From Octopus vulgaris (lineage: Eukaryota): DNA of 64,000 bases. Positions within the stretch are counted from its first letter, which is position 1, and every line of letters starts with the position of its first letter. The position numbers and the translations under genes are program-made. Shown here piece by piece: positions 9,633 to 55,236 of this stretch. Under the pieces are notes generated by a model, which saw nothing but the letters and a program-made list of their open reading frames with translations, was not told the DNA's origin and searched no databases. The DNA is taken from assembly GCA_951406725.2 (NCBI GenBank), contig OX597827.1, positions 49,972,001 through 50,036,000 on the forward strand. The letters are read 5' to 3'.

Positions 9633-9669
9633 CTAAAATTTTCGTTGCGTCTTGCAACCTTTTCAATAG
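9633..9669 (-). ncRNA. Minimal type-I hammerhead ribozyme motif, U3-A8 variant, in a Penelope-like fragment (~9490-9680)
   Basis: Minus strand: cta TTGAAAA G GTTGC aagac GCAAC GAAA AT TT tag. Helix I cta/tag; helix II 5 bp; helix III palindrome AATT. Confidence 0.5.
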
Positions 9670-9830
9670 TTTTGACTCTCGTTTAATTTATTTTCCTTTT
9701 AGCAGAAAGATATGTTTAGAGATGAAAACTTCGTAGCCCACTAAGTGATATCTAACTTCTAGACAGATATTCACCTCAATATAATCTCTAGAATTCAACA
9801 AGACTATAGTAGTTGTCTGTTATAACATGT

Positions 9831-10134
9831 TGTTTGTTCCTTCTTAGGCCATGCCTGGCTCATAAGGGCCGGTTTCCCGGTTTCTTGGCGTATAGTTACC
9901 CCACCTGGACGGGACACCAGTCCATCACAGGTGAGCTACAAGATGCAGGAGGAAAGAGTGAGAGAAAGTTGTGGCGAAAGAGTCAGCAGAAGTTTCGCCA
10001 TTACCTTCTGCCAGAGCCGCGTGGAGCTTAGGTGTTTCGCTCATAAACACACACATCGTCCCGTCTGAGATTCGAACCCACGATCCCTTGACCGTGAATC
10101 TGCTGCTCTAACCACTAGGCCATGTGCCTCCACC
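9831..10134 (-). mobile_element. tRNA-derived SINE, family A subfamily 2
   Basis: Minus-strand tRNA head (TGGCCTAGTGG, GGTTCGAATC); 12-bp TSD GTTATAACATGT at 9819-9830 and 10135-10146. Confidence 0.9.
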
Positions 10135-10451
10135 GTTATAACATGTGAAAAAGAAAAGTGGGATGTAAACTGGCAAAGGAATATCCAACTTCTGACAGAT
10201 GCTATGTTGCATGCAAGTCTAAATCATACATACTAGGAAATAAATGGAAAAGCTAAACTGTTTTAATAGTGACAGAGGCAGTGTTTATCTCCGTGCTAAT
10301 GATATAAACAAAAGAAAATTATTTCCCTGCTAACAATATAAACAAGAGTGCACTTTGCTCCCAAAAGCAAAAATGGGAGTTTGTCTCATGGTATCTCTGC
10401 AGCATAGTTTGTTCTCACAGAACATCCACATCTAAGTGTGATAAATATTGC

Positions 10452-10625
10452 TATGAGTGGCTGTGTGGTAAGTAGCTTGCTTACCAACCACATGGTTCCG
10501 GGTTCGTTCCCACTGCATGGCACCTTGGGCAAATGTCTTCTACTATAGCCTCGGGCTGACCAAAGGCTTGTGAGTGGATTTGGTAGAAGGAAACTGAAAG
10601 AAGCCCGTCGTATATATGTATATAT
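10452..10625 (+). mobile_element. SINE family B, 5' half
   Basis: GAGTGGCTGTGTGGTAAG...GGCACCTTGGGCAA...GAAAGAAGCCCGTCG. Confidence 0.85.
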
Positions 10626-11693
10626 GAATCTAGAGTTAAAATAATTGATTATATTCACTGTTTCTAAAACAAAGCTAGAAATCAATGTCTATCATTCAAA
10701 GGCAATCATAGGATATTTATGGGAGAGTTTGTAGGAGGGCTTAGGCAAGTTCAATTGAAGTAAGAAAATAAGAGTATTTCTTTGATTATAAGCAAACCAA
10801 ACTTGATAACTCAACTTTCTCTCTTTGCCTCATGCTCAGATGAAGGGCAGAGACTAGAAACATCATATTATTCACTCTAAATGGCAGCTGGATTTGCCCG
10901 AGCTCTTCCACGAGCTCATCTGTGGGCTAACTGTTACTGATGCAAAACATCATGAGTTTTCTGAGATTTTTAGATATATATGATTCCAAGTTAAACAATC
11001 GGAATTTTCAGCAACCTTTAAAACAAATGCAAGCTGACTCAGTCGTCTAATTTAGATAAAATACATATTAGTTAAATAGTAAATTATTATTCATTTTTAC
11101 CCTCTTAACTAATTTTGCATGACCATAATGAATAAGCTAATGAAATTGCTTCTGTGAGGTCACTTGACTTGCTAGAAAAAGCAGCTAAATCTCTCTTAGA
11201 TTGCACCCTACCATCTTTAAAAAAGAACACCTTGGATAGTATTGTCTAGGTAAACTATGTTTTGAAAGAAATTGAAATGGTCATGGCTGGATTGCCTTTG
11301 ATCATAGGATTAGGGTTGATTAGGGATGATTAGGGCTAAACAACAACAACAACACTATCGTAACATATCAGGAGCTATTTTTAGAGTAGCTGATAGAAAT
11401 CGCAACATTTAAGCTTTTTCCTAAACTTTAGCAACAGCAACATAAATTATATAAACTATAACCAAAAGATTGATATAAATGATATAAACTATAACCAGAG
11501 ACTGAAACAAGTTGTAGGGTTGGTTCTTTTTAAAGCTTACACTCTGCTATAGGTCTCTGACTTGGTACAATGATCTCTATTGACTTTAGAATGATCTCTG
11601 ATAGGATTTGAATTCAGGATATAGAAATGAAACTAAACACCGTAGTGCATTTAGTCTGGTCCTTTATCATGTCTGCTTACTACCTTCTTTTAA

Positions 11694-11913
11694 CCCTTTC
11701 GTTACTGTATTTATTTTGAGATGCTCTGTTTTTCTTTCAATTACTTTAAATATAACAAAGAATTTAGTAAAATAACTTAGTTATCATTCAGTTAGTGTTA
11801 GGAACATAAATTGTGACTAAGGTTTGGTGGAAGATTTTAATTAAAAACTTATGAAAACAAGACATTTGTACTGAGAGCCAGAGCCAGTTTCAGCCGGGTT
11901 GGTATCGAAAGGG
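11694..11913 (+). mobile_element. piggyBac-type MITE
   Basis: TTAA|CCCTTTCG...CGAAAGGG|TTAA. Confidence 0.9.
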
Positions 11914-14232
11914 TTAAAGGCACAAAGAAAATCTAGCTTGGGCGCTGGGGTAGGGTAATATAACAGACCAAGATACTTCTAACTGCTTGTACATATCCAA
12001 ATCTGAAAAATTGGGCCAATTGCTAGGAGCAGTGTATTAGTGATAAGTTAGATCTTATTAGATTTATTCCTGGTTTTTAATTCTTGACCCCATTCCCAGA
12101 ATTGCATGATACAGTAGACTTTAATAAGGGGTCACTTGTAACAAAGAACAGTAAAGCATATTGTTTTAGTCTACTGTCTTCATTATCATTGCTAATCCAC
12201 TGGACTTGAAGTATTGTAAAATGACATAATTAGCTTCACATTCACACTGACAGAAGCTAGTGTGGGATGGCATGATTTAATGATAGGAAAGGGAGGAGCC
12301 AGCATTTTCTATCTCTGGCAACTATTTAACATATAGCATCTGTGTTGGTTAGCTGTTTATGTTATATAAGAAAGATGTGATGAAGTCATTCTGGTGTATG
12401 CATATGTACCATGTTGTGTGTGTATTTGTTTATGCATGTATGTGATTTATAAGGTATGTGCAGATGTAGAAGATAAGTGAGAGAGAGAGACAGAGAGACA
12501 GCAAGAGAGAAAAAGAGGTGTTGAAGCTATGAAGCTATTTTGCTAAAAAGCTTACTCATAGCTTGTCATAGTAACCTAGAAAATAAACTACCCTATAAAA
12601 ATAGATTTTAAAAAAAAAGGAGAAAGAGAATGGATGTTGATGAAGACTTAGTTATTATGCTTTACTTATTTATTTAACCCAGTAACCAAACATTTCTCTG
12701 GGAACCAAATAAGAAATACCAATTTTGACTGAGATTTGAAAAATACAAAAAAAGACTAGAAAACAGTAAAATAATCAACCACTAATTTTTAGAAACAAAT
12801 TCTTAACAGAGACAATATTTAAAAGCAGTAGTTTAATAAGAAGAATAATAGGTTGCATACATACAAAGCAGCTTTTCTATTTTTTTAAACTGTTGCTTTT
12901 AAATATTGTCTTTGTAAAGACTTTTTTTAAAGTGAAACAGCAACCTTGAGCTCTCAGCAGAAGAAGTAAACACCTTCCTTTGCAAAACTCCAAGAGAACA
13001 TGAATTCAACCAAAGCAAAATTCTTATAAGCCTGCTTCCCCCACCAGGTTTGACATGAGTGAGCCAATATAGAGGGTAGTTCAAGAATTTGTTCTGGAAG
13101 CAAGGCCAGTCTCTGTTCCAGGGCACAGTGTCTATACTATACCATACAGTGTCAATAAACACTAAGACTCACCCAACAACTGTGGAAGATGCATTCTTCA
13201 GCATCTTGTCCTGTCAGCTAACAAAATTCCTCTGGGACAATGAGAATATTTACACATAAATACAGGAAGATGAGGCTGCTACACACACATGCACACATAC
13301 ATGCACACACACACACATCCATCTATACATCTATAAGTCTATGGCTGCATCTTATTATCCTTTTGGCGCATTCATTGATTAAGTTCTCTTCACTCAAAAG
13401 ATGCACAGGGATTCCTCTGAGCACAGATGGCAATTTCTAGAAAAAGTATTGTATGGATGTGCATAGTTTATTATGTATCAAGTAATGCTATATTTTAGGC
13501 CACCCTTGTTTAGTCTCCATATTAGGTCTGCAAGTGAGGTAGAATTCCTCTTGTCAGTTGAATTGGAACTGGCAACATGGTTGCAATATTGATTTTCAAA
13601 AAAAATCCACAGATGCCCCTATATACACATATGCATCTCCTCTTGTACTGACTGTGCATTTGTATATTATGTTTTGATAATAATGTTTACCAGATTTCTT
13701 GGTGCATATTCAAAATAATGAAATGAACACTGAGTTTTAAAAGAAAAATATTTTTTACTTTAAAATAAAATTAAGTATAACCTATTTCTTATTTCTTCTA
13801 ACATATCTGTATTCCTCTTTTGCTCTCACTCTCTATCCTACTATTTCATGTAAAGTGTGACTGGAGAAATCAATCAACCAAATTTTCAACTAACATATAT
13901 ATTAGCTATTACTATATAGGGATGTGTGTGTGCGTGTGTGTGTGTGTGTGTGCATGTGCTCGTGCATGCATTTGTATTTATATGTACATGTATATATGTG
14001 TATTTATGGTTAAGTACTTGTAAAAGAAAATAAAAGTTCTCCCACCTGAAGAAGCATTTTGTCCAAATCTAAGAGAATCATCTCCCAATAGCCTACTAAT
14101 GTAAAAAAAACTTTATATTTTGCTACAGAAAAAGTATAACTTTAGCTGATGTGGAGCATCACCATTTTGTTACATTCTGGTTCATAGAATATTTTCATAT
14201 GTATATATATACATGTATATGTGTGTGTGTGC

Positions 14233-14279
<47 letters not shown>

Positions 14280-14295
14280 AGATGCAGCATGGAAT

Positions 14296-14346
14296 TTTGT
14301 CAGTGAACAGGTCGTGGTTTCAAAATGACGAAAATATTTTGACAAA
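14296..14346 (+). ncRNA. Minimal type-I hammerhead ribozyme motif, G3-C8 variant, in a (TA)n-flanked element (~14278-14430)
   Basis: tttgtca GTGAACA G GTCGT ggtttcaaa ATGAC GAAA ATAT TT tgacaaa. Helix I 7 bp perfect; helix II 5 bp; helix III palindrome AATATT. Confidence 0.65.
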
Positions 14347-14467
14347 TTAGATTTAAATGTGAAAGTGAATCTAACAGTTTTTGCGTGTTTTTAATGGCTT
14401 ATAAACACCTTCTAAGCTGCAATTGTTATATATATATATATATATAGATAGATATATATAGATATGT

Positions 14468-14658
14468 AAAGAGAAAGTTCTTGATGCAGTATTATATATA
14501 TTTGAAAGAATGAGTAGAGATGACATTTTTGAGGGGATAAATTTTTATTTTAATCTTAAAACTTTATTAAGTTTAAAATAAAAATTAACCCCTGAAAAAA
14601 GCCATCTCCACTCATTCTTCCAAATATATATAATACTGCACTAAGAACTTTCTGTTTA
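14468..14658. repeat. ~190-bp foldback (two ~85-bp inverted arms)
   Basis: 14468-14553 is largely the reverse complement of 14573-14658; flanked by TA/TATC microsatellites. Confidence 0.85.
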
Positions 14659-14866: not shown

Positions 14867-14920
<54 letters not shown>

Positions 14921-15764: not shown

Positions 15765-16283
15765 TGCCGGTGGCACGTAAAAAGCACCATCCAAATGTGG
15801 CCGATGCCAGTGCTGCCTCGACTGGCTTCCGTGCCAGTGGCACATAAAAGACACCATCCGAACGTGGCCAATGCCAGCGCCGCCTTGACTGGCTTCCGTG
15901 CCAGTGGCACGTAAAAATCACCATCCGAACGTGGCCGATGCCAGTGCCGCCTCGACTGGCTTCCGTGCCAGTGACACGTAAAAAACACCATCCGAACATG
16001 GCCAATGCCAGCGCTGCCTCGACTGGCTTCCGTGCCCATGGTATGTAAAAAGCACCAACCGATCATGGCCGTTGCCAGCCTCGCCTGGCACCTGTGCTGG
16101 TGGCATGTAAAAAGCACCCACAACACTCACAGAGTGGTTGGCGTTAGGAAGGGCATCTAGCTGTAGAAACACTGCTAGATCAGACTGGAGCCTGGTGCAG
16201 CCTTCTGGCTTCCCAGATCCCGGTCGAACCGTCCAACCCATACTAGCATGGAAAACAGACGTTAAACGATGATGATGATGATG
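15765..16283 (+). mobile_element. RTE LINE 3' UTR with four full and further partial 67-bp tandem units
   Basis: Units TGCC(G/A)GTGGCACGTAAAAAGCACCATCCG...GACTGGCTTCCG at about 15765, 15832, 15899 and 15966; (GAT)n tail. Confidence 0.85.
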
Positions 16284-19382: not shown

Positions 19383-20029
19383 TTGTGTGTGCGTGTGTGT
19401 ATGTATGTGTGTGTGTGTGTTTGTGTGTGTGTAAGTATGTATGTATGTATGTATGTGTGTGTGCGTGTGCATGTGTATGTATGTATGTATGTGTGTGTGT
19501 GTGTGTGTGTGTTTGTATGCATGTATGTGTATTTGTATGCATGCATGTATATATGTCATTGTTTAGTTTTATTTCAAGATTTCTTGCCAACAGAGGAACA
19601 GCTGATTTCTAACCTAGATCCAAGGTCCCTTCATTGGAACTTCAACATCAGCTGGGTATTTTTGTATGTATGTATGTATGTATGTATGTATGTATGTATG
19701 TATGTACAATGTATCTGAAGATATTATGCAAATCAGTTTTTTTTTTTTAATAAAATGAATGTACATGTACAAAGGAAGCTGAAATTTTAGGATCTTGGTA
19801 AAAATGCTCTTTCTTAATTGTGGCTAAAATTTGTCATACATTTGATCTGTTTTTTTTTTTTTTGTGAGTAATTGAGAATTTACTGAAATTGGCTGTCTGA
19901 AGTTATTATGCAAATGTTGGAATTGTTATTTGCTCTGCATATCAGGACAATTAAAATATATGAACCCATTATGGATTTTTTACTAATTCAAAGAACAATG
20001 TTTCAATATATACTTGAAACAATTTACAT

Positions 20030-20480
20030 GTATCAGGTACTTGGTTGATATTTCCTGTTCCTGGATTGCAAATGCATACCCTTCAAAGTGGGTGGTAGTA
20101 ATCTGGCTATTGGTCCATGATAAACTGCTTTGATGATCAATGTTACTATCATCACGGAGCTTTCTACTAACATAGCCATGAATAATCTTCTGCTCATATA
20201 GTCTCATTCTTTCATTTGATGATATGTTGTGGTAGAGTTGCAAAACTTCTTTGGACATGTATTCCAGGTTATTAGACAAAGAATGTTGCTCAAGGAGCTG
20301 CCTTCCAAGTCTTATGATGTTATCAGCCTCATGTATGCAAACTTGGTCAAAGGATGCACTTCGACACTTGGTAGTTAAAAGATGTTGCCGAAGGAATATG
20401 ATGCAACATTCAAAGGCATTTTGGATCAATGTTAAGCCTCAGCCACTTTGTTTTCACTTTAGGTAGAGGTGGTGTACCAC
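20030..20480 (-). mobile_element. R4/Dong-clade non-LTR fragment
   Basis: ORF 19983-20429 contains SLSWTNSQITTTHFEGYAFAIQEQEISTKYL; homologous to 3965-4640. Confidence 0.75.
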
Positions 20481-20580: not shown

Positions 20581-20781
20581 AAGTTAATCCAAACAAGAAA
20601 ACCCAAAAAACACAACGCGAGGACATGGAACAAATATAGTATTATTGGACGCTCAGGAAAGAAGGGAAGAAGGAGGATTTAACGTTTCGAGCGGAGCTCT
20701 TCGTCGGAAAAATAGGAGAAGGAAAGATCCCGAGAAGGGAAGACAGAGGGAAAAAATCGCCAACGGTACACACGAGGTCAC
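20581..20781 (-). mobile_element. Penelope-like terminal-repeat fragment with hammerhead motif (20678-20710)
   Basis: Minus strand: ttt CCGACGA A GAGC tcc GCTC GAAA CG TT aaa. (TA)n-flanked; same family as 23590-23810 (+). Confidence 0.6.
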
Positions 20782-20790
20782 AATATATAT

Positions 20791-21345
20791 ATTACCTCCC
20801 TTTGCAGGTTTAGGGCACCGTGACGGTGTCGAGCCTTTCTGGTGACGTCGATGTTCGCCTGGGGCTAAATGCAACAGTAACACCCCCACCACCCTGCCCT
20901 GTCCCTAGCCATATTCAGATGGCTTTAGTCCCTTATGTTGTCGAGCAGTTACTGTCTATATTCCTTTTAGAGAATTATTATTGCTTTCGAACAGATTTTC
21001 GAAATCAGCAAATGTATTTTGCTTGAAAATCTATATAAGAAAATCCTGCAGAGAGAGAATTCGTCGAGGAAGCGGAGGCCTACCACACGCCGATGATAGG
21101 CAATACACCTTGAAACCATGGTCCGTGTGTGGTTTCCGCTTCATCGGGGAATTACCTCCCTTTGCAGGTTTAGGGCACCGTGACGGTGTCGAGCCTTTCT
21201 GGTGACGTCGATGTTCGCCTGGGGCTAAATGCAACAGTAACACCCCCACCACCCTGCCCTGTCCCTAGCCATATTCAGATGGCTTTAGTCCCTTATGTTG
21301 TCGAGCAGTTACTGTCTATATTCCTTTTAGAGAATTATTATTGCT
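20791..21345 (+). mobile_element. Candidate retrozyme: 360-bp unit present 1.5 times, 195-bp identical direct repeats, internal hammerhead
   Basis: 20791-20985 equals 21151-21345 base for base. HHR in the spacer; (TA)n on both sides; no credible protein. Confidence 0.65.
21058..21153 (+). ncRNA. Type-I hammerhead ribozyme with extended helix I; predicted cleavage GUC^ after 21123
   Basis: cacacg CCGATGA T AGG caataca CCT T GAAA CCATGG TC cgtgtg. Helix I extends through GGCC/GGTT, GAAGCGGA/TCCGCTTC, CGA/TCG and AATTC/GAATT. Confidence 0.75.
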
Positions 21346-22486: not shown

Positions 22487-22534
<48 letters not shown>

Positions 22535-22979
22535 TGTACCACATACACACACATATACGCACACACATATATACCCACACACATGCACACACACACACAA
22601 CGCACAACATGCACGCATGCACACCGCACACCTACACGCATACACACACACACACGCACGTACACATACATACATACACACACGCATACATACACCCATA
22701 CACATACATGCATCCTACACACACATACATACACACTCACACATACATACACACACACCACTCACTCACACACCTGTATGTTCGCGCACACACATGCACA
22801 TACACACACTTCCCCACACCCACACGTACATACATACACACTCATACACACATACACACACACACACACGGACATACATCTATGCACACATATATACACA
22901 CATACTCACATACATTCATCGGACACACTCCACCCAGACATACACACAGACACACTCACACATCCACACGCACACATAC

Positions 22980-23810
22980 GTACGCGCACACTCAGGCTCG
23001 CGCACGCCGCGTTTGCGCCGGTTGCGCCGCATGCGCCCGCATGCACCTCGCCCTGGATCCGACGAGACCTCCCGCCCGTTCCTGGGATGTCGCTTGTCGT
23101 TGGGTTTTCCCACGCCCGTCTCCGCGGGACCACTCCTCCATCTTCCTCCGCTGGAGTCCTTTCCTAAACCTTTTTTTCGTTACACACACGCACACATATA
23201 CACACATTGCTTAAACATATACATCACTCTTACACATTCAATCTACTCGCCACTATACTACCACGACACTGGACACACACACACACTACTACTCAACACA
23301 CGCTGGCACGCTACATACGCCCCCACCCCTTCCCTCCTCCTTCCTCCTTCCTCCTTTTCTCACTACTGACCTTGTCTGCTATGCTGCTATGCTGACCACC
23401 GTCTCGCCTACCTCACACGCCTACACACAGACGCACACACTAACACATACATATATTTTTTTTTTTTTACCTCGCCTCACACACACATACACACACGCAC
23501 ACGCACACACTCACACATACACACACATCTGTTGCGTTACCAACCTTGTCTCCACTCTTTTGCCTTTAAAACCCACTTTGCTCTTGTTATCGTAAACATC
23601 CGCCTTTCACCATGTGCTTCTGCTAACACCAGCCGTTTTTCTCTCTCGTTGCGCTCCGGGATCTTTCTTTCCTCCTCTTCTTCTTATGTTTCGACGAGAG
23701 CTCCTCGAAACGTCATACCTCCTCTTCCTTTTCCTGAGCGCCTATTAATAATAATACTGTAATTGTTCCCTTGTTGTTGTTTGTTTCCGTTTGGATTAAA
23801 ATTATATATA
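22980..23810 (+). mobile_element. Degraded Penelope-like 3' region with hammerhead motif (23688-23718)
   Basis: GC-rich 22980-23170 has only faint resemblance to a GIY-YIG C-terminus. It is followed by a CA-rich spacer, then gttT CGACGA GAG ctc CTC GAAA CG TC atac, homologous to 20581-20781. Confidence 0.45.
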
Positions 23811-23954
23811 AATAAATATATATATATATATACATACACACACACACATACATATGTATGTATGCATGTATGTACATCAAATAACTCATTTTTTTAATGG
23901 TCGAACTTGATGTAGATAAAAGTGTTGATAACAGCATGTAGAATATTATTTTTT

Positions 23955-29020: not shown

Positions 29021-29218
29021 GTGACAATTATTTGGTAGCCACAATAAAACTCCGAGTTACGGATGTTGGGGGCAGAAACCCACGCTGCTATCTCTTCAGT
29101 TATCCGGCCATCGAAAAAGGGCTTTTTGATGGCCGGATAACTGAAGAGATGGCAGCATGGGATTCTGCCCTGACATTCGTAACTCGGAGTCTTATCATGG
29201 CTACCAAATAATTGTCAC
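29021..29218. repeat. 198-bp foldback carrying a hammerhead motif on each arm (+ 29136-29196; - 29043-29104)
   Basis: Arms are near-perfect reverse complements about a centre at 29119-29120. The + arm reads gataa CTGAAGA GATG..CATTC GTAA CTCGGAG TC ttatc. Confidence 0.8.
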
Positions 29219-38101: not shown

Positions 38102-38659
38102 TGACTGAAAATTCTAAGATTTTTCAATTCTATTTCACTGTTATCAGCATTTGTTGTTTCATTAAATTACGTTACCCCAAATCCCAAAAGAATATTTTTC
38201 TCCCTCCTGTTCTATCCTTGACCTGCCTAACTCTGGTCCCTGTCTCTCTCCCTCTCTCTCTCTCTCTCTGTTTCGATAACCACTTGCTTCTCCAACACCT
38301 CCCCCTCCTCCACCACCCCACCCTATATAAACTTGCTTACTCAGGTTCTGTTACTTCATCTTAATAACTCTGGCAAAAGAATACAAATCCAGATGTTCTC
38401 TAATTTTGCTATTTCGCAATATGCCTGCCCTCCTTCCCATCCCCACCACCTGTACCGGAAGCCCCTATCCTCTGACATCCTTTGGTTTTCTCCCATGAAC
38501 ACTTCTAAAGGCTTAACGCCATCCACACCCCTACTTAGGGTTTATCTCTTATGTAAGGTAGTGATCATATAGTGCAAAAATATGATAGTGTAGTGTATGC
38601 AGGTTGAATTGAAGGCTATTTGTTTGTTTATGAATTCTGCCAAATGCGAGCTTTCTTTT

Positions 38660-40626
38660 CAGGTACATGACGCTGCTGTCCCTCGTCCTAGGGTCTCACA
38701 GGCCCACACCTCCCACACCCTCAGGGTTGTCACACTCAACGTGATCACACTGAAGGGTAGGTCTGGTGAGATTGTTGAGGTGCTTGAACGGAGACGTGTA
38801 GATTTGTGCTGCATCCAAGAAGTAAGGTGGAGAGGAGGTTCCACTAGGTTCCTCACTGGCAAAGAACATAGGTACAAAAATTTCTGGGCAGGGAACACTA
38901 ACGGGGTCAGGGGTGTGGGTATACTTCTTGCAGAGAAATGGGTTGATAAGGTAATCAAGGTAGTCAGAGTCTGTGATAGAATATGTAAGTTTAGATTAGT
39001 GCTACATCACGGGTTAGCCTATGCCCTCAGCTGGGGCTACCTGATGGACAGAAAAACCGATTTTATTACAACCTCCTGCTGAATGACAGAGACCTTCTCT
39101 TTGTGGCTGGTGACATCAATGGACATGTTGGACAACATGCAGGAGGATTCCATGGCGTACATGGAGCCTATGGTTTTGGTTCCCACAATGAGGAGGGAAC
39201 CAGGCTGCTGGAGTTCTGCGATGCAAATGGTCTTATGGTTTGCAATACTAACTTCAGGAAACCTGTCAGTCACATAGTCACATACCAATCTGGTAGACAC
39301 ACAAGCCAAATTGACTACATCCTCACTAGAAAAAGGAAAAGATGGCTGCTTATAAATGCCAAAACCTTCCCAGGCGAAGAATGTACCCCACAACATAGAC
39401 TAGTAGTTAGCGACTTCAGGATCAGGGCTAAATGGATGCCCAGAAGACGAACAGCATGGAGAGAAGGGGCTGGTAGCTTAAAGATCCTGTGAATGGACAG
39501 AGATTTAGATACATATTACCTGAGGCTATTGACAAAATAGAGGGGGATATAGCATCACATGATGTGGAAGACAACTGGAGGTTTCTATGGAACAACCTGC
39601 TGATGGTAATGTGGTGGTGGAACAATATTATTAACAGGGCCATTAGGGGAAAGAAACAGGCTTGGAAGGACTGGAGGAATGGTGGTTGCAGGGAATTGTA
39701 TCAGACTACCAGAAGGGAAGCTAGGAGACAGGTTTATTTAGCCAGAGGAGAAGCTGATAAGAATAGTCAACTGCTACAAAGGTAAAGGTGATGCTTTAGA
39801 TAAAATTATTACAGCGGTATCAAGTTGTTGGATCAGGTAATGAAAGTCACGGAGAGGCTCATAGCCCAACTAATTAGGGAGAGAGTCAGTTTAGATGAGA
39901 TGCAGTTTGGGTTCATACCAGGCAGCTGCAGCACCACTGATGCTATATTTCTGTTACGACAGCTGGAGGAGAAATACCTAGCCAAAGATACCTGGCTTTT
40001 GTTGACTTGGAGAAAGACTTTGATAGGATCACCTGATCCCTTATTTGGTGGTCAATGAGGAAACTAGGGATAGATGAATGGCTAGTGAGAGCTGTGCAAG
40101 CCATGTACAGGGATGCTGTCAGTTAGGTGAGGGTTGGCAACGAGTACAGTGAAGAATTCCGGGTAGGGATAGGGGTACGTCAAGGATCAGTCCTCAACCC
40201 CCTCTTATTCATCATAGTTCTCCAGGTAATAACAGAGGAATTCAAGACAGGATGCCCCTGGGAGCTCCTCTATGCTGATGACCTTGCTCTAATTGCTGAG
40301 TCACTCTCAGAACTAAAGGAAAAGTTTCAGGTGTGGAAGCAAGGATTAGAATCAAAGGGCCTTAGAGTCAACCTAGCTAAAACAAAAGTCTTAATAAGTA
40401 GTAAGGCGGACAAGCCACAAATCTCTTCAGGTAGATGACCCTGCTCGATCTGTAGAAAGGGCATAGGTAGAAACTCCATAAGATGTACCCAATGTAAGCT
40501 ATAGACACATAAGAGGTGCTGCAATATCAAAGGAAGGCTAACTGGGAAGATAGTTTTTGTGTGTGGCAAATGCTCAGGAGCAATAAACAATGAAAATGTG
40601 CAGAGAACAGCTTCTGTCACATTCCT
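38660..40626 (+). mobile_element. RTE LINE (APE endonuclease + RT + Cys-rich finger), pseudogenised, 3'-truncated, intronic
   Basis: TLNV..LKGR, CCIQEVRW, AGDINGHVG, SQIDYIL, QHRLVV, MQFGF, GVRQGSVLNPLLF, LLYADDL, CSICRKG..RNSIRCTQC; frameshifts and deletions. Confidence 0.93.
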
Positions 40627-42480: not shown

Positions 42481-43085
42481 TATCAATGAAAAATCAATGT
42501 GTCAAGGCCTTTGATGTGATGCTACCAAGCGGAAGGTTTGGAGTCAGCTTAGAAAGCTTGATAAGGATTACAATTCACTGGTACAGAAAATTTAAAGCTG
42601 CATGTGAAAGGCAAAAACTGCTGGCAGAAGAATCTCAGAGGAGTGGAAGAAAATTCTAGAATAACAGAAACCTATGAAGAGGAATATGAAAGATAACCTC
42701 GAGTAATCTGTTCTGCGAAAAGTGATCAGATGAGACCTCAGAAATTACTGAAAATTAAAGATTGACATAGCTGATACACCCTATGGATCACAATGTAGGT
42801 TCAAGGTGACAGACAAAGGGGTGATGAAAGAGACATTCATGTATATATGTGTGTGTATGTGCATGTGTGTGTATACATATATATTTAGTACACTCGGTAA
42901 TGCAATTGCAATGCAATAAAAAACACCGATGTTAGTTCCCTGTGACTGTGCCCAGTGGTGGGCTTACATTTTGGCTAACAAGAATGTGTTTGCTTGTGGG
43001 TGTGAGCACCAACTGGCTAGTAAAGCTTTGCTTTCTTTTTATATAATATGAGAGAATGTGTGAGTGTATGTATGTAGATATACAG

Positions 43086-43578
43086 CATCATCATCATCGT
43101 TTAACGTCCGCTTTCCATGCTAGCATGGGTTGGACGATTTTGACTGAGGGCTGGCGAACCAGATGGCTGCACCAGGCTCCAATCTTGATCTGGCAGAGTT
43201 TCTACAGCTGGATGCCCTTCCTAACGCCAACCACTCCGGTACTGGCGGTACTGGCAATGACCTCGCTCGAATCTTTTACACTTGTCACTGGCACAGGTGC
43301 CAGTAAGGCAATGCTGGTAACAATCACGCTCGAATGGTGTTTTTACGTGCCACCGGCATGGAGGCCAGATAGCTGCCCTGGCAATGATCACGCTCGGATC
43401 GTGCTCTTTAAGGCGACGCTGGTAACAATCATGCTCAACTGGTGCCTATTAAGTGCCACTGGCACGGAAGCTGGTTAGCCGCTCTGTCAATGATCACATG
43501 CGTATGGTACTCTTTGCACCCCACTAGCACGGACGCCAGTCATCGAATTTGGTTTTGATTTTGATTTGATTTTTGATT
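43086..43578 (-). mobile_element. RTE LINE 3' UTR
   Basis: (CAT)n head on the plus strand followed by family sequence; ends about 30 bp before the last exon's acceptor. Confidence 0.85.
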
Positions 43579-46518: not shown

Positions 46519-47305
46519 GATTACTACTATTTTTAACCCCAAGAGGATGCCTTCTCTAGCCGGTTAATGATGCAATCTGCATCCGATATATATTGCAAGC
46601 AGAGAACCACACCCATAACATTTTCTAGCAAATTGACAGGACCACCAGACCAGTATAGTTTCGGGCTATTTTTACCTATCCTCAGTGGTGGATACTTGTC
46701 CGCTAGAGATAGCAGTAGTTCGCTCCAGCTCGCAATATATAGAAAGAAATATGTAACCATTGGTCACTGATCTTGCAACAAACAAAGTAGCTAGTAAGAA
46801 AATCTTTACTTTGCATTTATCGAATTGAGCGTACCACCTGCTCCAGATTGAGTTGGTATCTCATATACTTTGACATATTTTCTGTTATTTTGTTCTAAAC
46901 CAGTTGTATTTAATGAGCTTTCTGCAATCAGGGGGCACAAGCATCTTAGTTTTCTTGATTTTATCTCTTCTTTCTTGTTCCATTTTTTGCATCAACCTTC
47001 TTCACGTTTTCTTCCATGCATTTTTCTTTATTTTTTTTTACTGTCTAGCATCCTTGTTTTTAATATATATATATATACAGAAGATGAGGTACCAAATATA
47101 ATGCATAAACAGAGCCTGAAAGATTGCTTTAAGATACATGGCATATTCTATAACCATACCTGTTCAAGTATCATAATAACATGAAACTAGCTCTTTCGGT
47201 TGTGCATTTAAACTGATATATATATATATCAATTTAAATGTTGAACGATGAAAATTAGTGCACAACGCCACATTGGTGGACATAATTTCTTTACTTGTAA
47301 ATTAA

Positions 47306-47370
47306 AACTACCATTGGTTTCATGCTAAGAAAAGTAGGGAAATATCATAGTGTTAACAATTTTTCAAGCC
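47306..47370 (-). ncRNA. Type-I hammerhead motif, U3-A8 variant
   Basis: Minus strand: ggc TTGAAAA ATTGTTAA..TTAGCAT GAAA CCAATGG TA gtt. Confidence 0.45.
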
Positions 47371-48035: not shown

Positions 48036-48093
48036 ACTTTAAATCGATTTCTGGTTTAGAGATGTAAAATCTCCCTACCTTCATCAGTATAGT
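48036..48093 (-). ncRNA. Type-I hammerhead motif, canonical core
   Basis: Minus strand: actata CTGATGA A GGT..GGAGAT tttac ATCTCT..ACC A GAAA TCGA TT taaagt; helix III palindrome ATCGAT. Confidence 0.65.
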
Positions 48094-48132: not shown

Positions 48133-48164
<32 letters not shown>

Positions 48165-48216
48165 CTGTGTGTGTGTATGTGCACGCATATATGGGTACAA
48201 GACGTCACTAACAGTA

Positions 48217-48268
<52 letters not shown>

Positions 48269-49081: not shown

Positions 49082-49170
49082 GTGTGGCTGAAGATTGCTC
49101 TACATTTTAAATTGATGTAATGATTGCATTGTTCAATTAAATGGGGTTGCATGAAACGATCGTACGGCAT
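49082..49170 (+). ncRNA. Type-I hammerhead motif with long helix II
   Basis: gtgtgg CTGAAGA TTGC..aattga..tcaatt..GCAT GAAA CGATCG TA cggcat; helix III palindrome ACGATCGT. A related decayed copy lies near 21790-21840 (-). Confidence 0.55.
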
Positions 49171-52100
49171 TACCTCTGGATATTCTTGTTGCTTATTTAT
49201 ATATATATATCGTCATTGCCAAAGTCTAAGAAAGTGCCAATGGTGTGGATTTGTTTAAGGTGAACCTCAACTTGCCAGGAAGTGACCCACGCACTTGATT
49301 TCATGTGGCATACATAGAATGAGACATGAAACTGCAACAAACGTCTGCTGACTGGGTTATAGTCTTGAGTTACACCTTCTGTAGCATACTCATCATCATC
49401 CGCTGGTTCAGGCTTTCAGATAGGATGCAATCATCGTCTACTTGTTCAACCTTTGGGATTTTGTGGGTGTGTGTATATATCATCATCATCATTTAACATC
49501 CATTATCCATACTGGCATGGGTTGGATGGTTTGACAGGAACTGAGCAGATGAAGGCCTGTTCAGGCTCCCATGTCTGTTTTAGCATGGCTTCTACGGCTG
49601 GATGCTCTTCCTAATGCTAATGCCCACACATGCACATGCATATATGTTTATTCTTGAATAAAGATTCAACAGAATAAGAAATAGTTGGTGCGAAGACTAT
49701 ACTCAATTTCTATGATTTGTCAATATTAAAAATTAATAAAAGTAATATTTAGTGGCAACCTTATATAGTTTAATGAAACTAAAAATATTAAAGTCTTTAT
49801 TTTTATCTTTCTATCTTCTGAGTTCAAATTCTGTTTGCTGTAAACTTTGCTCAATGAACCATAGAGCAAAGTAAGTAAGTACCGGATATGCTACTTTGTA
49901 ATTTCTTCAACGCCGCCCACTTTTTTTCAGATACTTTCTCTTCTATCAGTTTGATAAAAACGATAAAAAAACATCAATACTAACAACTTCAGTAGTTTTA
50001 GTGCAGCTACAAGCCTTCCCTACCATCAGCACATTTTATGCTGATAGAAACTGTGCCAAGCAGGAACATAGAAAAAAAAATCAAATAAAATTCTTAGACA
50101 TAATACCCTAATACATTTTAAGTAGATTGTCATAAATTAGAACCAAATTTTAAAACTTGGTATGTTTCAGGAAATGACTATTTCCTAATTGAAAATAAAT
50201 GTTAAGTATATTCACATCTGGTTTTTATTCTGATAATATTTTTCTATGTAGTTAATAACTAAGAAAATTTTGATGGTGTTGTTCTTATCATTGAGTTAAA
50301 CACGTTTGTAATAGAACACTTTCAGTCTGAATATGTGGTTTTATTTTCTTGAGTTGCCCAACTTTAGTAATACCAGTCTTTCCTTCAGATTAAAAAATAA
50401 TTACCACCAAGGGATTCAGTTCACTGCTATAAGTACAAGCGACACTGAATGAATTCAAATAGGGGTGAAATTTCAAAGAAAACTCAGAGAGGAAATGGTG
50501 CTGCAATATCAACATCATAAGAAGAAAAAAAACTCTTTATTTCCAGTCTATGAGGAAATTAGGTTTGAGTGAATTTAGAATTAGAAAAAGGGCATAAAAA
50601 CGGTTACTTAACCTAGAATTATTTAGTGAAGTGAAGCAGTGAATGTTTTAGAATGGCTAGTGGTGTTTAGATGATGGTTACAAACATGGGGGGAAAAGGG
50701 TGTTGAGAGAAAATGACAGATAGTTTCAGATCCCAAAAGGTTGAATATATACTTTTGACACAAGTGGGGACATCGGTCAAAAGAAGCTTTGTTTACAAAT
50801 GATTAGGAATTAGTATATTCTGAATAAATGCTAACGAGAGATTTACATGGCCTAAAGATTTTTTTGACAAATTTTCTCAACTGCCTTGCAGGACAACTTT
50901 TGTCTTTCATTTGTTTTTTGCTAGCATGTGACGATATAGCACTCTGGTTGCCATTTTATCAATACTGTAGCATGGATGAGTTGCAAGTATTAATAGCTAA
51001 ATGGATGATAAGCCAAAGAATGTGAAAATGTGCACATGTAGAACTTCAAGACATCAAAATAAAACATCAGAAAGTCCTGCATTTGACAGAAAACTGACCA
51101 AGAATTATAAAAGAAGTTAATTCAAAATTTTCCTTTTTCTTGATCACTCGTATTCATTCAGTAGAATTTAAGTATTTTTTGACCACATAATTATAATTTC
51201 TGTTCAATTATTTTCTAGAAAAGAATGCTATCAATATATCAGATTTTATGGAACAGGTTTGAGTGACTAAGGTATTAGTCAATATTTCTATAATAAATAA
51301 CTTCCTAGATTTTCAACCAAGATTTGAAATTTAGCATAAATTTTTCTACCAGTTATTGGTCTTGGCTTTCGCACAACTTTCACCCTCTCTACTTGTCAAC
51401 ACAGAAAAGTAGATTCTCTTACTCTTTCTCTCTCTCCTTTTTCCATCCATTTTCCAGCGGTCATTCACTGATGATGATAACTACTTACAAAATGCATTAT
51501 AGAGCTAAAAATAATCTGTGTGCAAAGAAGTTGAATTTTACATTGTAACAATGAAAATAAAGGGCCATTTCGACTAGTGATTATTATTTTTCTTCCCCAC
51601 ATAAAGGAATTTTTTCTGTTTGGTTGCCAAGATTTCAAAATCAAAGTTTATCAAAAATTTTTAAATTTGATACATTAATGTAGTTTTTCAAGCTGAATTG
51701 CTGGAGGTATTTAACTTTTACCAGAAAAATTTGATAATATTCACCCATGTCAAGAAACAGGATTTAGATGCCGTCATTTAGAGCGTGACTGCACATTTTG
51801 TCAATGTCCCGAAAATGGCACATGTGTATTTATATGGTTTATTTTTATAAACTGTAAACAAATTACGCTCGACATTTAACTCCTCATAGCCTTTTTATTT
51901 TTTGAAATTTTCAGAAAATTTTTGCCAATTTGTATTATGCACACGGAAATTCATACGATTATGAAAAAAAAATTATGGGGATACGTGATTTAAGGCCTAT
52001 TTAGTTGTCTTTTAGCTGTTATTTTTAGTACACCTCACAACCACCTCAATGGCGTAAAAAAAAAAACGAGTAGACATGTATTTTGTAGTTTTATGCATTC

Positions 52101-52182
52101 AATATACATTTAATGCTATAAACAGTGCATTACAAATTGAATATTTCTTAAGATAAGAAACTTATAACACAAACTTATATAT

Positions 52183-52572
52183 AGGCGCAGGAGTGGCTGT
52201 GTGGTAAGTAGCTTGTCTACCAACCACATGGTTCCGGGTTCAGTCCCACTGCATGACACCTTGGGCAAGTGTCTTCTACTATAACCTCGGGCTGACCAAA
52301 GCCTTGTGAGTGGATTTGGTAGACGGAAACTGAAAGAAGCCCGTCGTATATATATATATATACATACATGCGTGTGTGTGTTTGTGTTTGTCCCCCTAGC
52401 ATTGCTTGACAACCGTTGCTAGTGTGTTTATGTCCCCGTTACTTAGCGGTTTGGCAAAAGAGACCGATAGAATAAGTGCTGGGCTTACAAAAGAATAAAT
52501 CCCGGGGTCGATTTGCTCGATTAAAAGCGGTGCTCCAGCATGGCCACAGTCAAATGACTGAAACAAGTAAAA
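52183..52572 (+). mobile_element. SINE family B, full length
   Basis: Head, core and tail as in 18245-18676. Confidence 0.9.
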
Positions 52573-52684
52573 TAGTATGTATTCCAGCAGTGTGTCACGA
52601 TTCCAACAAGGCACCACATAAAGAAAAACTAGTCTAGTTTCACGACACACTAGTGTGCTCAGTTATACTTACATCTTGAGAAAA

Positions 52685-53070
52685 CTATTTCGTCTTCTCA
52701 ACAATCTTCCCAGAACCACCATCCTTAACTAGTTGACGGAGCAGGTCCTCCGCACACACTTCCCTAACATAGCTGTTATAATCAACAGCTGTGCAATGAC
52801 TCATCTCCAGTTTTTCAGCACAAAACTGGACTGAAGTCAATTCCTTAACCCATGAGTAAAGGAAAAGTACTACAATCCTAAGAGGAAGGAAGCCACCTTC
52901 AAACCACGTTTCTTTCCATACTGACACAGACTCCATGGATCCTCGGCGTGAATATTGCTTATACATATTCCCACCACGTTCTTTTGTACTCATAAAATGT
53001 TTCTTCATTTTGCATAATTTTCTTTTAGGTATAACGCCCTTTTCTTGAAAGTACAAAACCGCATCCTCCT
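52685..53070 (-). mobile_element. Merlin (IS1016-like) transposase fragment
   Basis: ETWFEG..LPL..VVLFLYSW...FCAEKLEMS..TAVDYNSYVREVC...GGSGKIVE; truncated at the VEIDES motif. Related repeats at ~51986-52053 and ~53078-53135. Confidence 0.8.
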
Positions 53071-53599
53071 CTGGTGTGTGATTTAGGGCCTATTTGGCTG
53101 CTATTTTTAGCACATATGACAATCACCTCAATGACTGAACTATATTTGTTAATATGTCCTTTCTCGCAGACAAAAGAGTTCTCATGTTTGGCTTGTTACT
53201 ATGGAAATAGGCATAAATGTGTGTATGGCTTGAGATTGATTAAAACTACCCCAAATTTTCAAACTTTAATAGTTAATAACTTTTTATTTATTGACTTATG
53301 GCGAAAATGATTTTCATGGCATTGATTAGTATATAAAAGTATATTGTTACACTGAATGAGAAATAAATTCGAATAGAAATTAAAGAGACAAAAAGAAAAG
53401 AAATTGGCAGACAAACAGGAAAGATCTCAGGGAGAATGACAATTATGAAAGCAACATCAGATACATTGAAAAGGAGAATTTCTTGGACTGTATGGCTGGG
53501 CAGGAAGCTGGTGGTGCCTTGCTGTCTGGTTAGTCTTTGAAGGGATTTTCGGTTAGCAGTGGAACGTTTGAAGGGGACGTTGAAGAAAAGTGGGAGGAT

Positions 53600-53834
53600 A
53601 ATGGGTTCATTAGGTAAAATTTTATTTGTAAAATACAGATAGTGGGTTCATTAGGTAAAATTTTATTTGTAAAATACAGTTGCTTTGAATTTGCTTCAGA
53701 ATGAGGTCTATGTTTGTGATGGTTAGTTAGGGGTGGGGGCACTAGGAATGCAGCTTGGGTGTCCAGCTTGGGGGCACTAGGAATGCAGCTTGGGTGTCCA
53801 GAGGCGGCAGCCCGAAAAAGTCTGGGAACCACTG
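53600..53834 (-). mobile_element. hAT/Charlie-like MITE end with two internal tandem duplications
   Basis: Minus strand starts CAGTGGTTCCCAGAC. Duplications TGGGTTCATTAGG...ATACAG x2 and GGGGCACTAGGAATGCAGCTTGGGTGTCCAG x2. Confidence 0.5.
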
Positions 53835-54271
53835 GTGTAAACAAACATGAGGTATATGTGTTTACTGTGTATGTGTTAGTGCCTTCTGTATACGGGTGTG
53901 TGAACGTATGTATATTCGTGTATTTATGTGTGCATTTGCCTGGAAAAAGATATGCGTACGTATTTTTATCTGGTGTATGCGTGTGTGTACACACACATAC
54001 ACAATAGAGTCAATGCTATCTTCATCAATATTTTCTCATGAATTATTTACCTCCCCCCCCACACACATCATTATTTCACGGATATTAAAGGTATGTCAGC
54101 ATCCAAGTTCTCCAGTTTTATCCAGTGTATCAGTGAAATACTAAAAGATGTTAGCTTCACATTGATGGATATTGGTATGTTACCATTTATGTATAATAAA
54201 AAGAACATGGAGAAATTGACATATAAACATCAATTTATTAAAACAAATCCAATTTCGAACAATATCAAACT

Positions 54272-54814
54272 CATCATCATCATCGTTTAACGTCCGCTTT
54301 CCATGCTAGCATGGGTTGGATGGTTCAACTGGGGTCTGAAGGCTGCACCAGGCCAGTCAGATCTGGTGGTGTTTCTACAGCTGGATGCCCTTCCTAACGC
54401 CAACCACTCTGTGAGTGTAGAGGGTGCTTTTTATGTGCCACCGACACAGGTGCCAGACGAGGCTGGCGAACGGCCACGCTCGGATGGTGTTTTTTACGTG
54501 CCACCGGCACGGAAGCCAGGCGAGGCTGGCACGGCCACGATCGGATGGTGTTTGTTACGTGCCACCAGCACGGAGGCCAGTTGATGCGGTGCTGGCTATG
54601 GCCACGTTCGGATGGTTCTCTTATGTGTCACCAGCACTGGTACCACAAACTACAAATTCTATTGATGTGGATCGATTTCGATTTGATTCTTTGATTTTCA
54701 TTTTCACTTACCTCAGCAGGTCTTCACAAGTAGAGTTATGTGTCCCAAGAAGGAAGGTATGCACAGGTGGACTGTGCACAGGTAGGAGCCATGGGTTATG
54801 GCCTCACTTGCCCT
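54272..54814 (-). mobile_element. RTE LINE complete 3' UTR
   Basis: Extends from the (CAT)n tail back to the ORF-stop region seen at 28205-28220. Confidence 0.85.
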
Positions 54815-54907
54815 CCTACAATTGTTTCCATGTTCAATCAATACAGATTAGAAAAATTAAATTAAAGATTCATATTGAAAAATAATTGATTGAACACTTC
54901 ATCAGGG
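54815..54907 (-). ncRNA. Type-I hammerhead motif with 12-bp helix II
   Basis: Minus strand: cc CTGATGA AG TGTTCAATCAAT..ATTGATTGAACA TG GAAA CAATTG TA gg; helix III palindrome ACAATTGT. Confidence 0.7.
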
Positions 54908-55197
54908 TCAGAACTTGATTGAAAAAGGAACTACATCCTAATGTGTTGATGTGTCCTTGGTAAACTCGGCATTAAATTCAGATATGCACACTTCTGAATT
55001 CTAATGTATTAACCCTCCTCCCCCGTTAATTGTGTATATGCAACTTTGTTTTAATTTATTTTTACGCCTGCGTTTGTTAAAGTGCTGAAAAACAAAGGAG
55101 CCGTTGGGTTGCCTAAACGATATCTTAATACAGTTAATTGTAATTAAAAACTTTTATTCCAAATTTTCAATACTACTTCTGAGCCAAGCAGCTACTA

Positions 55198-55236
55198 TGT
55201 GTTGATGAAGAGCAATAATCCTGAAACTAGTCCACA
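55198..55236 (+). ncRNA. Minimal type-I hammerhead motif (U3.G8), GUC triplet
   Basis: tgtg TTGATGA AGAG caataa TCCT GAAA CTAG TC caca; helix III palindrome ACTAGT. Confidence 0.6.

What the first reader, a model, noticed from the sequence alone, without database searches (positions are those of the whole stretch)
9633..55236. A dozen dispersed hammerheads, almost each with a different palindromic helix III
Seen: type-I HHR topology with these helix III sequences: 9633(-) AATT, 14296(+) AATATT, 20678(-) and 23688(+) ACGT, 21084(+) ACCATGGT, 29136(+)/29043(-) ACTCGGAGT, 47306(-) ACCAATGGT, 48036(-) ATCGAT, 49082(+) ACGATCGT, 54815(-) ACAATTGT, 55198(+) ACTAGT. The sequence differs between copies but self-complementarity is kept (two have a single unpaired centre base). 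Known: minimal HHRs with an unstable palindromic helix III cleave as dimers. Inference: many independent Penelope-like/retrozyme families exist here. The palindrome could act as a family-specific dimerisation code, so that only same-family RNAs activate each other. Roughly one motif per 5 kb here would imply a very large genome-wide ribozyme load if typical.
Basis: partly seen in the sequence, partly recalled or inferred. Interest (0 to 1): 0.85.

Follow-up and report, generated by a model that had tools for sequence, protein, structure and literature searches.

The report
Octopus hammerheads with swapped pairing palindromes
The dozen self-cutting-RNA motifs are real, mostly worn-out copies from about eleven jumping-gene families of known kinds (Penelope-like elements and retrozymes) in what is likely an octopus; their palindromes likely let two copies pair up to cut, but they are reused across families, so they would separate only close sister families rather than give every family its own code.

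Summary
All 12 motifs are present at the stated places and exceed chance: 5 descriptor hits against 0.5 in shuffles. Each belongs to a repeat family. The family majorities restore the core and helices, but only 4-5 of the 12 window copies still look intact. One family is the terminal repeat of an intact Penelope-like element (PLE). Another is a very young 360-bp tandem retrozyme (at least 1,322 exact copies) whose insertions carry the PLE footprint. Genome load is about 1.3x10^5 intact-looking motifs (one per 22 kb).

The strict 'family code' fails. 22 of 36 families share their palindrome with another, as often as chance predicts. Two window families share both palindrome and helix I 5' strand, and helix I also pairs between units in a dimer.

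A narrower version survives. One retrozyme lineage has used nine palindromes. The youngest burst (ACCAUGGU) arose from ACCUAGGU by a double change at positions that can pair only in a dimer. Helix I stayed cross-compatible, and heterodimers are predicted about 6 kcal/mol weaker.

The element types and the dimer idea are in print. This load and the natural matched pair were not found in my searches.

The parts
9633..9669 (-). Minimal type I hammerhead, U3-A8 core, helix III AAUU, helix I only 3 bp; PLE-like family, window copy matches the family
14296..14346 (+). Minimal type I hammerhead, G3-C8 core, helix III AAUAUU, helix I 7 bp; PLE-like family, intact by descriptor
20678..20711 (-). Minimal hammerhead, C3-C4 core, helix III ACGU, in a short element (about 20590-20780) whose 3' part resembles the terminal repeat of the 23690 PLE; the 31-nt core pattern shared with that family has 7,466 exact matches
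20791..21345 (+). Non-LTR retrozyme insertion, about 1.5 units of a 360-bp tandem repeat, between (AT)n tracts; 550 of 551 bases identical to an array on contig C1
21084..21129 (+). Canonical-like type I hammerhead of that retrozyme: helix I 6 bp, loop 1 CUAC/UG, loop 2 CAAUACA, helix III ACCAUGGU; intact
22526..23877 (+). Solo pseudo-LTR of a PLE family with intact 6.2-kb members (898-codon RT + GIY-YIG frame); 93.7% identical to the intact element's repeat
23688..23718 (+). Decayed minimal hammerhead of that pseudo-LTR (deletions in core and helix II), helix III ACGU
29043..29104 (-). Hammerhead on the inverted arm of one PLE-like insertion; helix III ACUCGGAGU; GUAA instead of the family's GAAA (predicted dead)
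29136..29196 (+). Hammerhead on the direct arm of the same insertion; also GUAA
46642..46691 (-).
47306..47370 (-). Decayed hammerhead, U3-A8 core, helix III ACCAAUGGU
48036..48093 (-). Hammerhead with canonical core, helix III AUCGAU, one helix I mismatch relative to the family
49082..49170 (+). Hammerhead with canonical core, long helix II, helix III ACGAUCGU, helix I damaged in this copy
54815..54909 (-). Hammerhead with long helix II, helix III ACAAUUGU, truncated after 2 bp of the helix I 3' strand
55196..55238 (+). Decayed canonical-like hammerhead, helix III ACUAGU, of an old family related to the 21090 retrozyme lineage

Best explanation
The motifs are mostly decayed hammerhead ribozyme sequences left by about eleven retroelement families (PLE terminal repeats and non-LTR retrozymes), and their palindromic helix III is likely kept because two copies on one multimeric transcript would pair through it to form a double hammerhead that cuts the RNA into unit lengths.

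Shown: repeat-family membership, family-level helices, compensatory changes, and PLE-type insertion structure.

Inferred: transcription, cleavage as dimers, circularisation of retrozyme units, and copying by PLE reverse transcriptase/endonuclease into (AT)n.

Any self-complementary sequence satisfies the constraint, so palindromes drift by compensatory double changes. Partner preference is a by-product shared between helix III and helix I. It is predicted to be real but partial between sister retrozyme families and absent where palindromes coincide.
For: Repeat families and restored helices. Intact PLE with the hammerhead about 130 nt from the 3' end of a 1,483-bp direct repeat.

Covariation in 15 retrozyme-lineage motifs: 93.4% of cells paired, 12 of 15 pairs changed on both sides, helix III 100% paired (the structure was set by me from these sequences).

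Centre dinucleotide of ACC-NN-GGU genome-wide: AU at least 1,322 (slightly longer pattern); non-A first base 204, of which the 100 listed are 90 UA, 6 UG (wobble) and 4 others; A followed by non-U 1. These two positions cannot pair inside one hairpin.

Double hammerheads are predicted 9-20 kcal/mol below two monomers where a monomer fold exists. Palindrome collisions among families match chance.

Insertion structure: 12 of 12 two-armed retrozyme insertions with both ends visible have one end near unit position 176 and one near 222, in (AT)n. PLE-like families show the same long/short arms. The palindrome/dimer model is in PMC4209133.
Against: No cleavage data. PMC7761336 reports that most invertebrate retrozyme hammerheads cleave well as monomers, and 8-9 nt palindromes can fold a 2-3 bp hairpin, so the dimer may not be obligatory. 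PLE minimal hammerheads cleave poorly in vitro even as dimers. Only one of the nine minimal-type families was tied to an RT/endonuclease frame. The energies ignore tertiary contacts and competing folds. Centre positions of the palindrome changed 3-4 times on the lineage tree against a column mean of 1.24, which is fast for paired sites and leaves room for selection.
Confidence: 0.75

Rival explanations
1. Selected compatibility code: palindrome switches are favoured because they insulate a new subfamily from RNAs of older or competing subfamilies that use the same PLE machinery.
For: Nine palindromes in one retrozyme lineage, each tied to a clade. The largest young burst (ACCAUGGU, copies 96-100% identical) is nested in older ACCUAGGU subfamilies and switched on a 0.055 branch. 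Helix I stays 6/6 bp cross-compatible, while heterodimers are predicted 6.4-6.8 kcal/mol worse. Centre columns are in the top 4-17% for change. HIV-1 DIS palindromes do bias partner choice (PMC3187697).
Against: No avoidance of shared palindromes (17 against 15.9 expected, P(<=obs)=0.73). ACCUAGGU persists across subfamilies 85-98% identical, and ACCGGU across 89-97%. The 20707 and 23690 families share their palindrome in thousands of copies. Tandem copies supply the partner in cis. Heterodimers remain favourable relative to monomers. The same branch also changed core positions 3-4, so the burst cannot be assigned to the palindrome.
Confidence: 0.13
2. The hammerheads with 6-9 nt helix III work mainly as monomers, and the palindrome is a leftover or serves RNA-RNA pairing for another step (for example co-assembly of two templates, which would explain the two-armed insertions).
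For: Monomer activity is reported for coral and mussel retrozymes (PMC7229834). The 21090 motif has the loop 1/loop 2 elements of canonical type I motifs. About half of its insertion clusters show hammerheads in both orientations (17 of 33 by my count of the first 100 matches).
Against: Covariation at the centre shows that pairing between molecules or units is selected. 4-nt palindromes cannot fold as monomers. Naiad PLEs make inverted insertions without any hammerhead (10.1101/2021.04.23.441226).
Confidence: 0.1
3. The motifs are chance matches in AT-rich repetitive DNA.
For: No Rfam hammerhead hit. Loose descriptors give 2-5 chance hits per window. Most window copies are imperfect.
Against: Shuffle controls. 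Family majorities repair exactly the broken positions. Compensatory 3-8 core pairs (C-G, U-A, U-G, G-C) and helix covariation.
Confidence: 0.02

Closest known systems
Minimal type I hammerheads of Penelope-like elements (Cervera and De la Pena 2014, PMC4209133; text parts 1-2 of 4 read, one of two supplements searched)
   Same: Type I topology; palindromic 15.2-16.2 and loop 3; extra base at the foot of helix II; U3-A8 core variant; many divergent families per genome; mostly dispersed single copies and inverted pairs; location in pseudo-LTRs.
   Different: Much higher count here (about 1.3x10^5, against about 2,000-9,000 reported per genome; descriptors differ). Longer palindromes (6-12 nt) are common. 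G3-C8 and C4 cores occur in abundant families. G10.1-C11.1 is often replaced by U-U, A-A or A-G.
Metazoan non-LTR retrozymes (Cervera and de la Pena 2020, PMC7229834, passages and section 14; Li, Clavereau and Pollet 2026, 10.64898/2026.07.22.740005, parts 1-3 of 5)
   Same: 351-363 bp non-coding tandem units, GC 40-50%, one type I hammerhead per unit, highly self-paired predicted circle (z about -6), co-occurrence with PLEs; U-U at the base of helix II as in axolotl HHR_Amex2.
   Different: Here the arrays are whole insertions with head-to-head arms and two fixed 3' ends 46 nt apart in (AT)n. This is the PLE footprint, and it argues for direct multimer retrotransposition rather than the local tandem expansion discussed in the preprint. 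A lineage with nine palindromes. Expression and circles are not shown.
Double-hammerhead cleavage (newt satellite 2 and ASBVd; Lunse, Weinberg and Breaker 2017 on PLE hammerheads; known to me only from reference lists, a review passage in PMC6765202 and recall)
   Same: Two units share an extended helix III formed by a palindrome.
   Different: I could not read Lunse et al., so whether heterodimer specificity was tested there is unknown.
HIV-1 dimerisation initiation signal palindromes (PMC3187697, passages)
   Same: Functional analogy: a short palindrome whose compensatory variants bias partner choice between lineages (co-packaging about 45% against about 20%).
   Different: No homology. There it is a kissing loop for packaging; here it is a ribozyme helix, and the partner is probably supplied in cis.

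Membership tests
Type I hammerhead ribozyme | Conserved core (3-8 pair, G5 A6, A9, G12 A13 A14, A15.1-U16.1, H17) | tested here: met
   Met by all 10 family majorities and the 21090 copy, with C-G, U-A, U-G or G-C at 3-8. Not met by the window copies 29099, 29141 and 23690.
Type I hammerhead ribozyme | Helices I and II with covariation | tested here: met
   for the retrozyme lineage (9 of 10 helix I/II pairs changed on both sides). Family helix I is 3-7 bp, except 23690, which has a U-U mismatch.
Type I hammerhead ribozyme | Self-cleavage at H17 | not testable with these tools
   No assay; contig data cannot show RNA ends.
PLE minimal hammerhead | Palindromic helix III region | tested here: met
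   family majorities are all palindromic; 24 palindromic hits against 0-1 in shuffles with no palindrome required.
PLE minimal hammerhead | Located in the pseudo-LTR of an element encoding RT + GIY-YIG | tested here: inconclusive
   Met for family 23690 (RVT_1 and GIY-YIG are below Pfam cut-offs, atlas hits 0.98). For the other minimal-type families no consistent RT frame was found within 1.5 kb; the only other tblastn hits were single loci of 20707, 14303 and 55202.
PLE minimal hammerhead | 5'-truncated copies, inverted partner, tail extension on one end, microsatellite targets | tested here: met
   Inverted second copy in 7/20, 9/25, 11/30, 7/20, 6/20 and 5/20 loci of six families; 0/30, 0/20, 1/20 and 2/20 in four. 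Long/short arms in 12 of 13 distinct two-armed 29141 loci and 5 of 5 49088 loci by my reading.
PLE minimal hammerhead | G10.1-C11.1 pair with an extra base between 9 and 10.1 | tested here: inconclusive
   An extra base plus G-C is seen in 9666, 14303, 20707 and 23690; other families have U-U, A-A, A-G or A-U at the foot of helix II.
Non-LTR retrozyme (21090 family) | 150-450 bp tandem units, one type I hammerhead each, no coding frame, GC under 50% | tested here: met
   360-bp unit, arrays of 8 or more units, GC 46.7%, longest ATG frame 50 aa.
Non-LTR retrozyme (21090 family) | Stable self-paired circular fold | tested here: met
   Circular MFE -117 kcal/mol, z -6.6 against 40 shuffles; prediction only.
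Non-LTR retrozyme (21090 family) | Expressed as linear and circular unit-length RNA | tested here: inconclusive
   No holder is on record as RNA. Contigs of 390 nt in two runs guessed to be RNA fit a circle or a tandem template alike.
   22 of 36 catalogued families share; 23 distinct palindromes; collisions as expected by chance.
   Energies only: 0 kcal/mol penalty for 20707 x 23690, 6-7 for ACCAUGGU x ACCUAGGU or ACCGGU, more for distant pairs.

The most novel reading that the evidence does not exclude
In the retrozyme lineage the helix III palindrome acts as a compatibility locus. A subfamily that switches palindrome (ACCUAGGU to ACCAUGGU) stops pairing efficiently with RNAs of its older relatives, escapes interference from their decayed transcripts and bursts. 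This would be a form of RNA-level speciation among viroid-like circles, comparable to HIV-1 DIS subtypes.
Probability: 0.13. Interest if true: 0.8.

Novelty: new member of a known kind. Interest (0 to 1): 0.5.

Why it matters
It gives a natural test set for two open questions about animal hammerheads: whether they cut as dimers in vivo, and whether retrozymes are moved by Penelope machinery. Sister retrozymes 92-94% identical differ by a compensatory swap at the two positions that pair only in a dimer, so homo- against hetero-dimer cleavage can be assayed with natural sequences. Their insertions carry the PLE two-arm, one-tail footprint. The genome also appears to hold 10^5 or more hammerhead motifs, which an octopus repeat annotation I searched (PMC13282606) does not mention. 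The broad 'every family has its own code' idea is not supported.

Tried and rejected
Rfam scan of the window: no hammerhead family hit, only microsatellite-driven miRNA noise.

U6-type promoter in the retrozyme unit: I compared by eye the upstream regions of 12 U6 loci, including four from a tandem cluster, and saw no shared element beyond a TATA-like word. Rejected.

Expression: no RNA holder listed. Contigs from four runs guessed to be RNA cover the unit at low depth, two as 390-nt contigs. This cannot tell RNA from DNA or circle from tandem, so it is not used as evidence.

Post-insertion conservation: core 2.4%, helix III 2.8% and flanks 5.0% divergence, but the copies were picked by similarity to a query centred on the motif, so it is not used.

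Loci L258, L259 and L261, fetched as possible full-length PLEs of families 20707 and 14303, are larger duplications without a PLE frame.

One search used a structure string off by one column and is superseded. One search crashed and was rerun. A PDB sequence search of the PLE protein gave 0 hits. The window frame 19983-20438 is unrelated to the PLE protein. A genome pattern for the 46685 family found 1 match, too tight to be useful.

Lunse et al. 2017 could not be read. Earlier-findings look-ups for this genome, for the combined key words and for the sequence returned nothing.
Full report
SETTING. The window lies on contig C14 of a 2.8-Gb genome in 227 contigs. It is AT-rich and full of microsatellites and LINE fragments. 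It is likely an octopus; this is an inference from recalled repeats and genome size, not a tool result.

OBSERVATION. A descriptor with a paired 3-8 core, GAAA, palindromic helix III and helices of at least 3 bp finds 5 sites against 0.48 in 100 dinucleotide shuffles (0 of 100 reach 5). A fully canonical core finds none. Rfam finds no hammerhead. Only 4 of the 12 pass the strict descriptor (9666, 14303, 20707, 21090), and 5 with one helix I mismatch allowed. What look like broken cores are partly compensatory variants: U3-A8 (already in PMC4209133), G3-C8 and U3-G8. A 13th motif at 46642-46691(-) was missed.

FAMILIES. Eleven DNA searches, one per family (the two arms at 29 kb counted once), all returned repeat families with 84-3,232 first-look candidates. 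Majorities of 20-30 best copies restore what the window copies have lost: GAAA in 29141 (23 of 29 copies have a fully intact core), 6-bp helix I in 48087 and 49088, and the deleted bases in 23690. Family 23690 is the 1,483-bp direct terminal repeat of a 6.2-kb element with an 898-codon frame. It has RT (DKG, YIDD) and GIY-YIG motifs, and other copies are 99-100% identical over most of the protein. Pfam hits are below cut-off; atlas neighbours score 0.98 and carry RVT_1/GIY-YIG. A Zn-finger-like linker suggests the Neptune or Nematis type (feature described in 10.1101/2021.04.23.441226; not tested by a tree). Six other families show the PLE pattern of variable 5' ends, inverted partners in 25-37% of loci, and one long and one short 3' arm, but no RT frame was tied to them.

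THE RETROZYME. The 21090 motif lies in 1.5 units of a 360-bp tandem repeat between (AT)n tracts. It is 550 of 551 bases identical to an array on C1, and a 29-nt piece has 1,322 exact genomic matches (control 0). The unit is non-coding, 47% GC and predicted to fold as a stable circle. In 12 of 12 two-armed insertions with both ends visible (of 24 loci laid, some from the same insertion), the arms are head-to-head. One arm ends near unit position 176 and the other near 222, both in (AT)n and far from the cleavage site. This matches the PLE description of an inverted 5'-truncated copy and a tail on one end. It implies a circular or uncleaved multimeric template copied by PLE enzymes (inference). 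The PLE link was proposed in PMC7229834 and argued by phylogeny in 10.64898/2026.07.22.740005. In the parts I read, neither uses insertion structure.

LOAD. In 80 stretches of 10 kb taken at round coordinates, the descriptor gave 47 hits (7 from one array) against 10.5 in 10 shuffles. That is one per 22 kb, or 1.3x10^5 genome-wide (bootstrap 0.7-2.0x10^5). Adding homology to the families seen so far gives 81 hits, about 10 of them chance: one per 11 kb, at least 2.5x10^5. The window is about twice as rich. Published counts are about 2,000-9,000 minimal motifs (PMC4209133), more than 6,000 in a coral, about 5,000 in a mussel and 126,247 in axolotl (PMC7229834). The descriptors differ, so the comparison is rough.

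IS THE PALINDROME SELECTED FOR DIMERS? With no palindrome required, strict hits in the sample are 24 palindromic and 18 not, against 0-1 and 3-8 in 8 shuffles. A lineage pattern gives 3,241 matches. With related loci, nine perfect palindromes appear, each tied to a clade: ACUAGU, ACAUGU, ACGCGU, ACCGCGGU, ACUGCAGU, ACUAUAGU, ACCGGU, ACCUAGGU and ACCAUGGU. Across 15 representatives, 93.4% of cells pair and 12 of 15 pairs change on both sides, including the innermost helix III pair (the structure was set by me, and 6-nt rows are gapped at the two inner pairs). For ACC-NN-GGU in one sequence context the centre is AU at least 1,322 times. It has a non-A first base 204 times: 90 UA, 6 UG, 2 UU, 1 UC and 1 GA among the 100 listed. 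It is A plus non-U once. These bases would sit in a hairpin loop in a monomer, so their covariation points to pairing between two units. Double hammerheads are predicted 9-20 kcal/mol below two monomers. Against this, invertebrate retrozyme hammerheads are reported to cleave well as monomers (PMC7761336), and nothing here measures cleavage.

IS IT A FAMILY CODE? In a double hammerhead both helix III and helix I form between the two units (established knowledge; the dimer is drawn in PMC4209133 Fig. 1A, legend seen). My catalogue has 36 families: the 15 with parts defined, plus clusters and strong singletons. Weak singletons and helix III under 4 nt were dropped, and some kept singletons may be chance. 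There are 23 palindromes, and 22 families share theirs. 17 of 630 pairs collide against 15.9 under a uniform null with length and first two bases fixed, so there is no avoidance. Helix I blocks 13 of those 17 pairs. Families 20707 and 23690 share core, helix II, helix III and the helix I 5' strand (7,466 exact matches of the shared pattern), and their heterodimer has no predicted penalty. The strict claim therefore fails.

Helix I is 6/6 bp cross-compatible among ACCAUGGU, ACCUAGGU and one ACCGGU subfamily, and heterodimers cost 6.4-6.8 kcal/mol, though they still beat two monomers. The ACCAUGGU clade (96-100% identical copies, 99/100 support) is nested in older ACCUAGGU subfamilies (85-98%) under midpoint rooting, and is the larger burst. 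The two centre columns changed 3 and 4 times against a mean of 1.24; 60 of 357 columns reach 3 and 15 reach 4. This is as fast as free sites and not clearly faster. Palindromes also persist across 10-15% divergence, and the same branch changed core positions 3-4. By-product specificity explains these data; adaptive switching is not excluded.

KNOWN AND NEW. PLE minimal hammerheads with palindromic helix III, their many families per genome, and the dimer model are in PMC4209133 (parts 1-2 of 4 read; supplement file 2 searched, file 1 not). Retrozymes are in PMC7229834 (passages, section 14) and PMC7761336 (passages). Dimer cleavage is summarised in PMC6765202 (passages). Lunse et al. 2017 was not readable and may already test partner specificity. 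Searches for 'hammerhead ribozyme'+'octopus', 'retrozyme'+'hammerhead'+'mollusc', double hammerhead/heterodimer/palindromic/stem III and 'retrozyme'+'Penelope' since 2023 listed no paper whose title or abstract start deals with cephalopod hammerheads or a palindrome code. An octopus repeat annotation has 0 occurrences of ribozyme, hammerhead or retrozyme in its main text (PMC13282606; supplements not seen). The closest working analogy for the code is the HIV-1 DIS (PMC3187697, passages).

VERDICT. The elements are new members of known kinds at unusually high load. The general code is not supported, and a narrow, testable version remains open (about 0.13). Interest 0.5.

Noticed in passing
window 20791-21345 and loci L001-L030, L356-L400: Retrozyme insertions have two head-to-head arms ending at unit positions about 176 and 222 in (AT)n: the PLE inversion-plus-tail footprint, direct sequence evidence for PLE mobilisation of multimers.
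   Followed up: yes
L256:1954-4650 (G000:C10): Intact, recently active PLE (898-codon RT + GIY-YIG frame, 1,483-bp direct repeats, long CA-rich 3' region); a candidate source of enzyme for non-autonomous families.
   Followed up: partly
window 20590-20780 (-): A short, very abundant element of about 210 bp with a fairly fixed 5' start whose 3' part resembles the 23690 PLE terminal repeat; likely a non-autonomous PLE derivative. The retrozyme inserted in the (AT)n at its 5' side.
   Followed up: partly
family 23690 (L256, L061-L080): The intact PLE's own helix I has a U-U mismatch, so its 5' strand would pair better with the 3' strand of sister family 20707 than with its own.
   Followed up: partly
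families 21090, 20707, 23690: The youngest, most abundant families carry C instead of U at core position 4, so this change does not stop transposition.
   Followed up: no
L397, L398: Two independent tandem arrays carry ACCUGGGU, a wobble-paired intermediate of the palindrome; single copies with ACCUUGGU occur in L391 and L401.
   Followed up: partly
L278, L293, L354-L360, L376-L378, L388, L394: A second abundant retrozyme family (362 bp, ACGCGU, U3-A8 core), 55-61% identical to the others.
   Followed up: partly
L350-L353 (G000:C1 about 139.42 Mb): Tandem cluster of U6-like genes at 1.0-1.4 kb spacing, with a variant 5' stem and shared upstream octamer-like and TATA-like words; many dispersed U6 copies lack this upstream region.
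   Followed up: no
window 15765-16086, 43047-43478, 54423-54580: Tandem 61-67 bp repeats inside an abundant dispersed element; window 38594-39492 holds a broken LINE endonuclease frame.
   Followed up: no
L116, L231, L313, L321, L078, L226: Hammerhead-like motifs with long 11-12 nt palindromic helix III that could fold as monomers.
   Followed up: no
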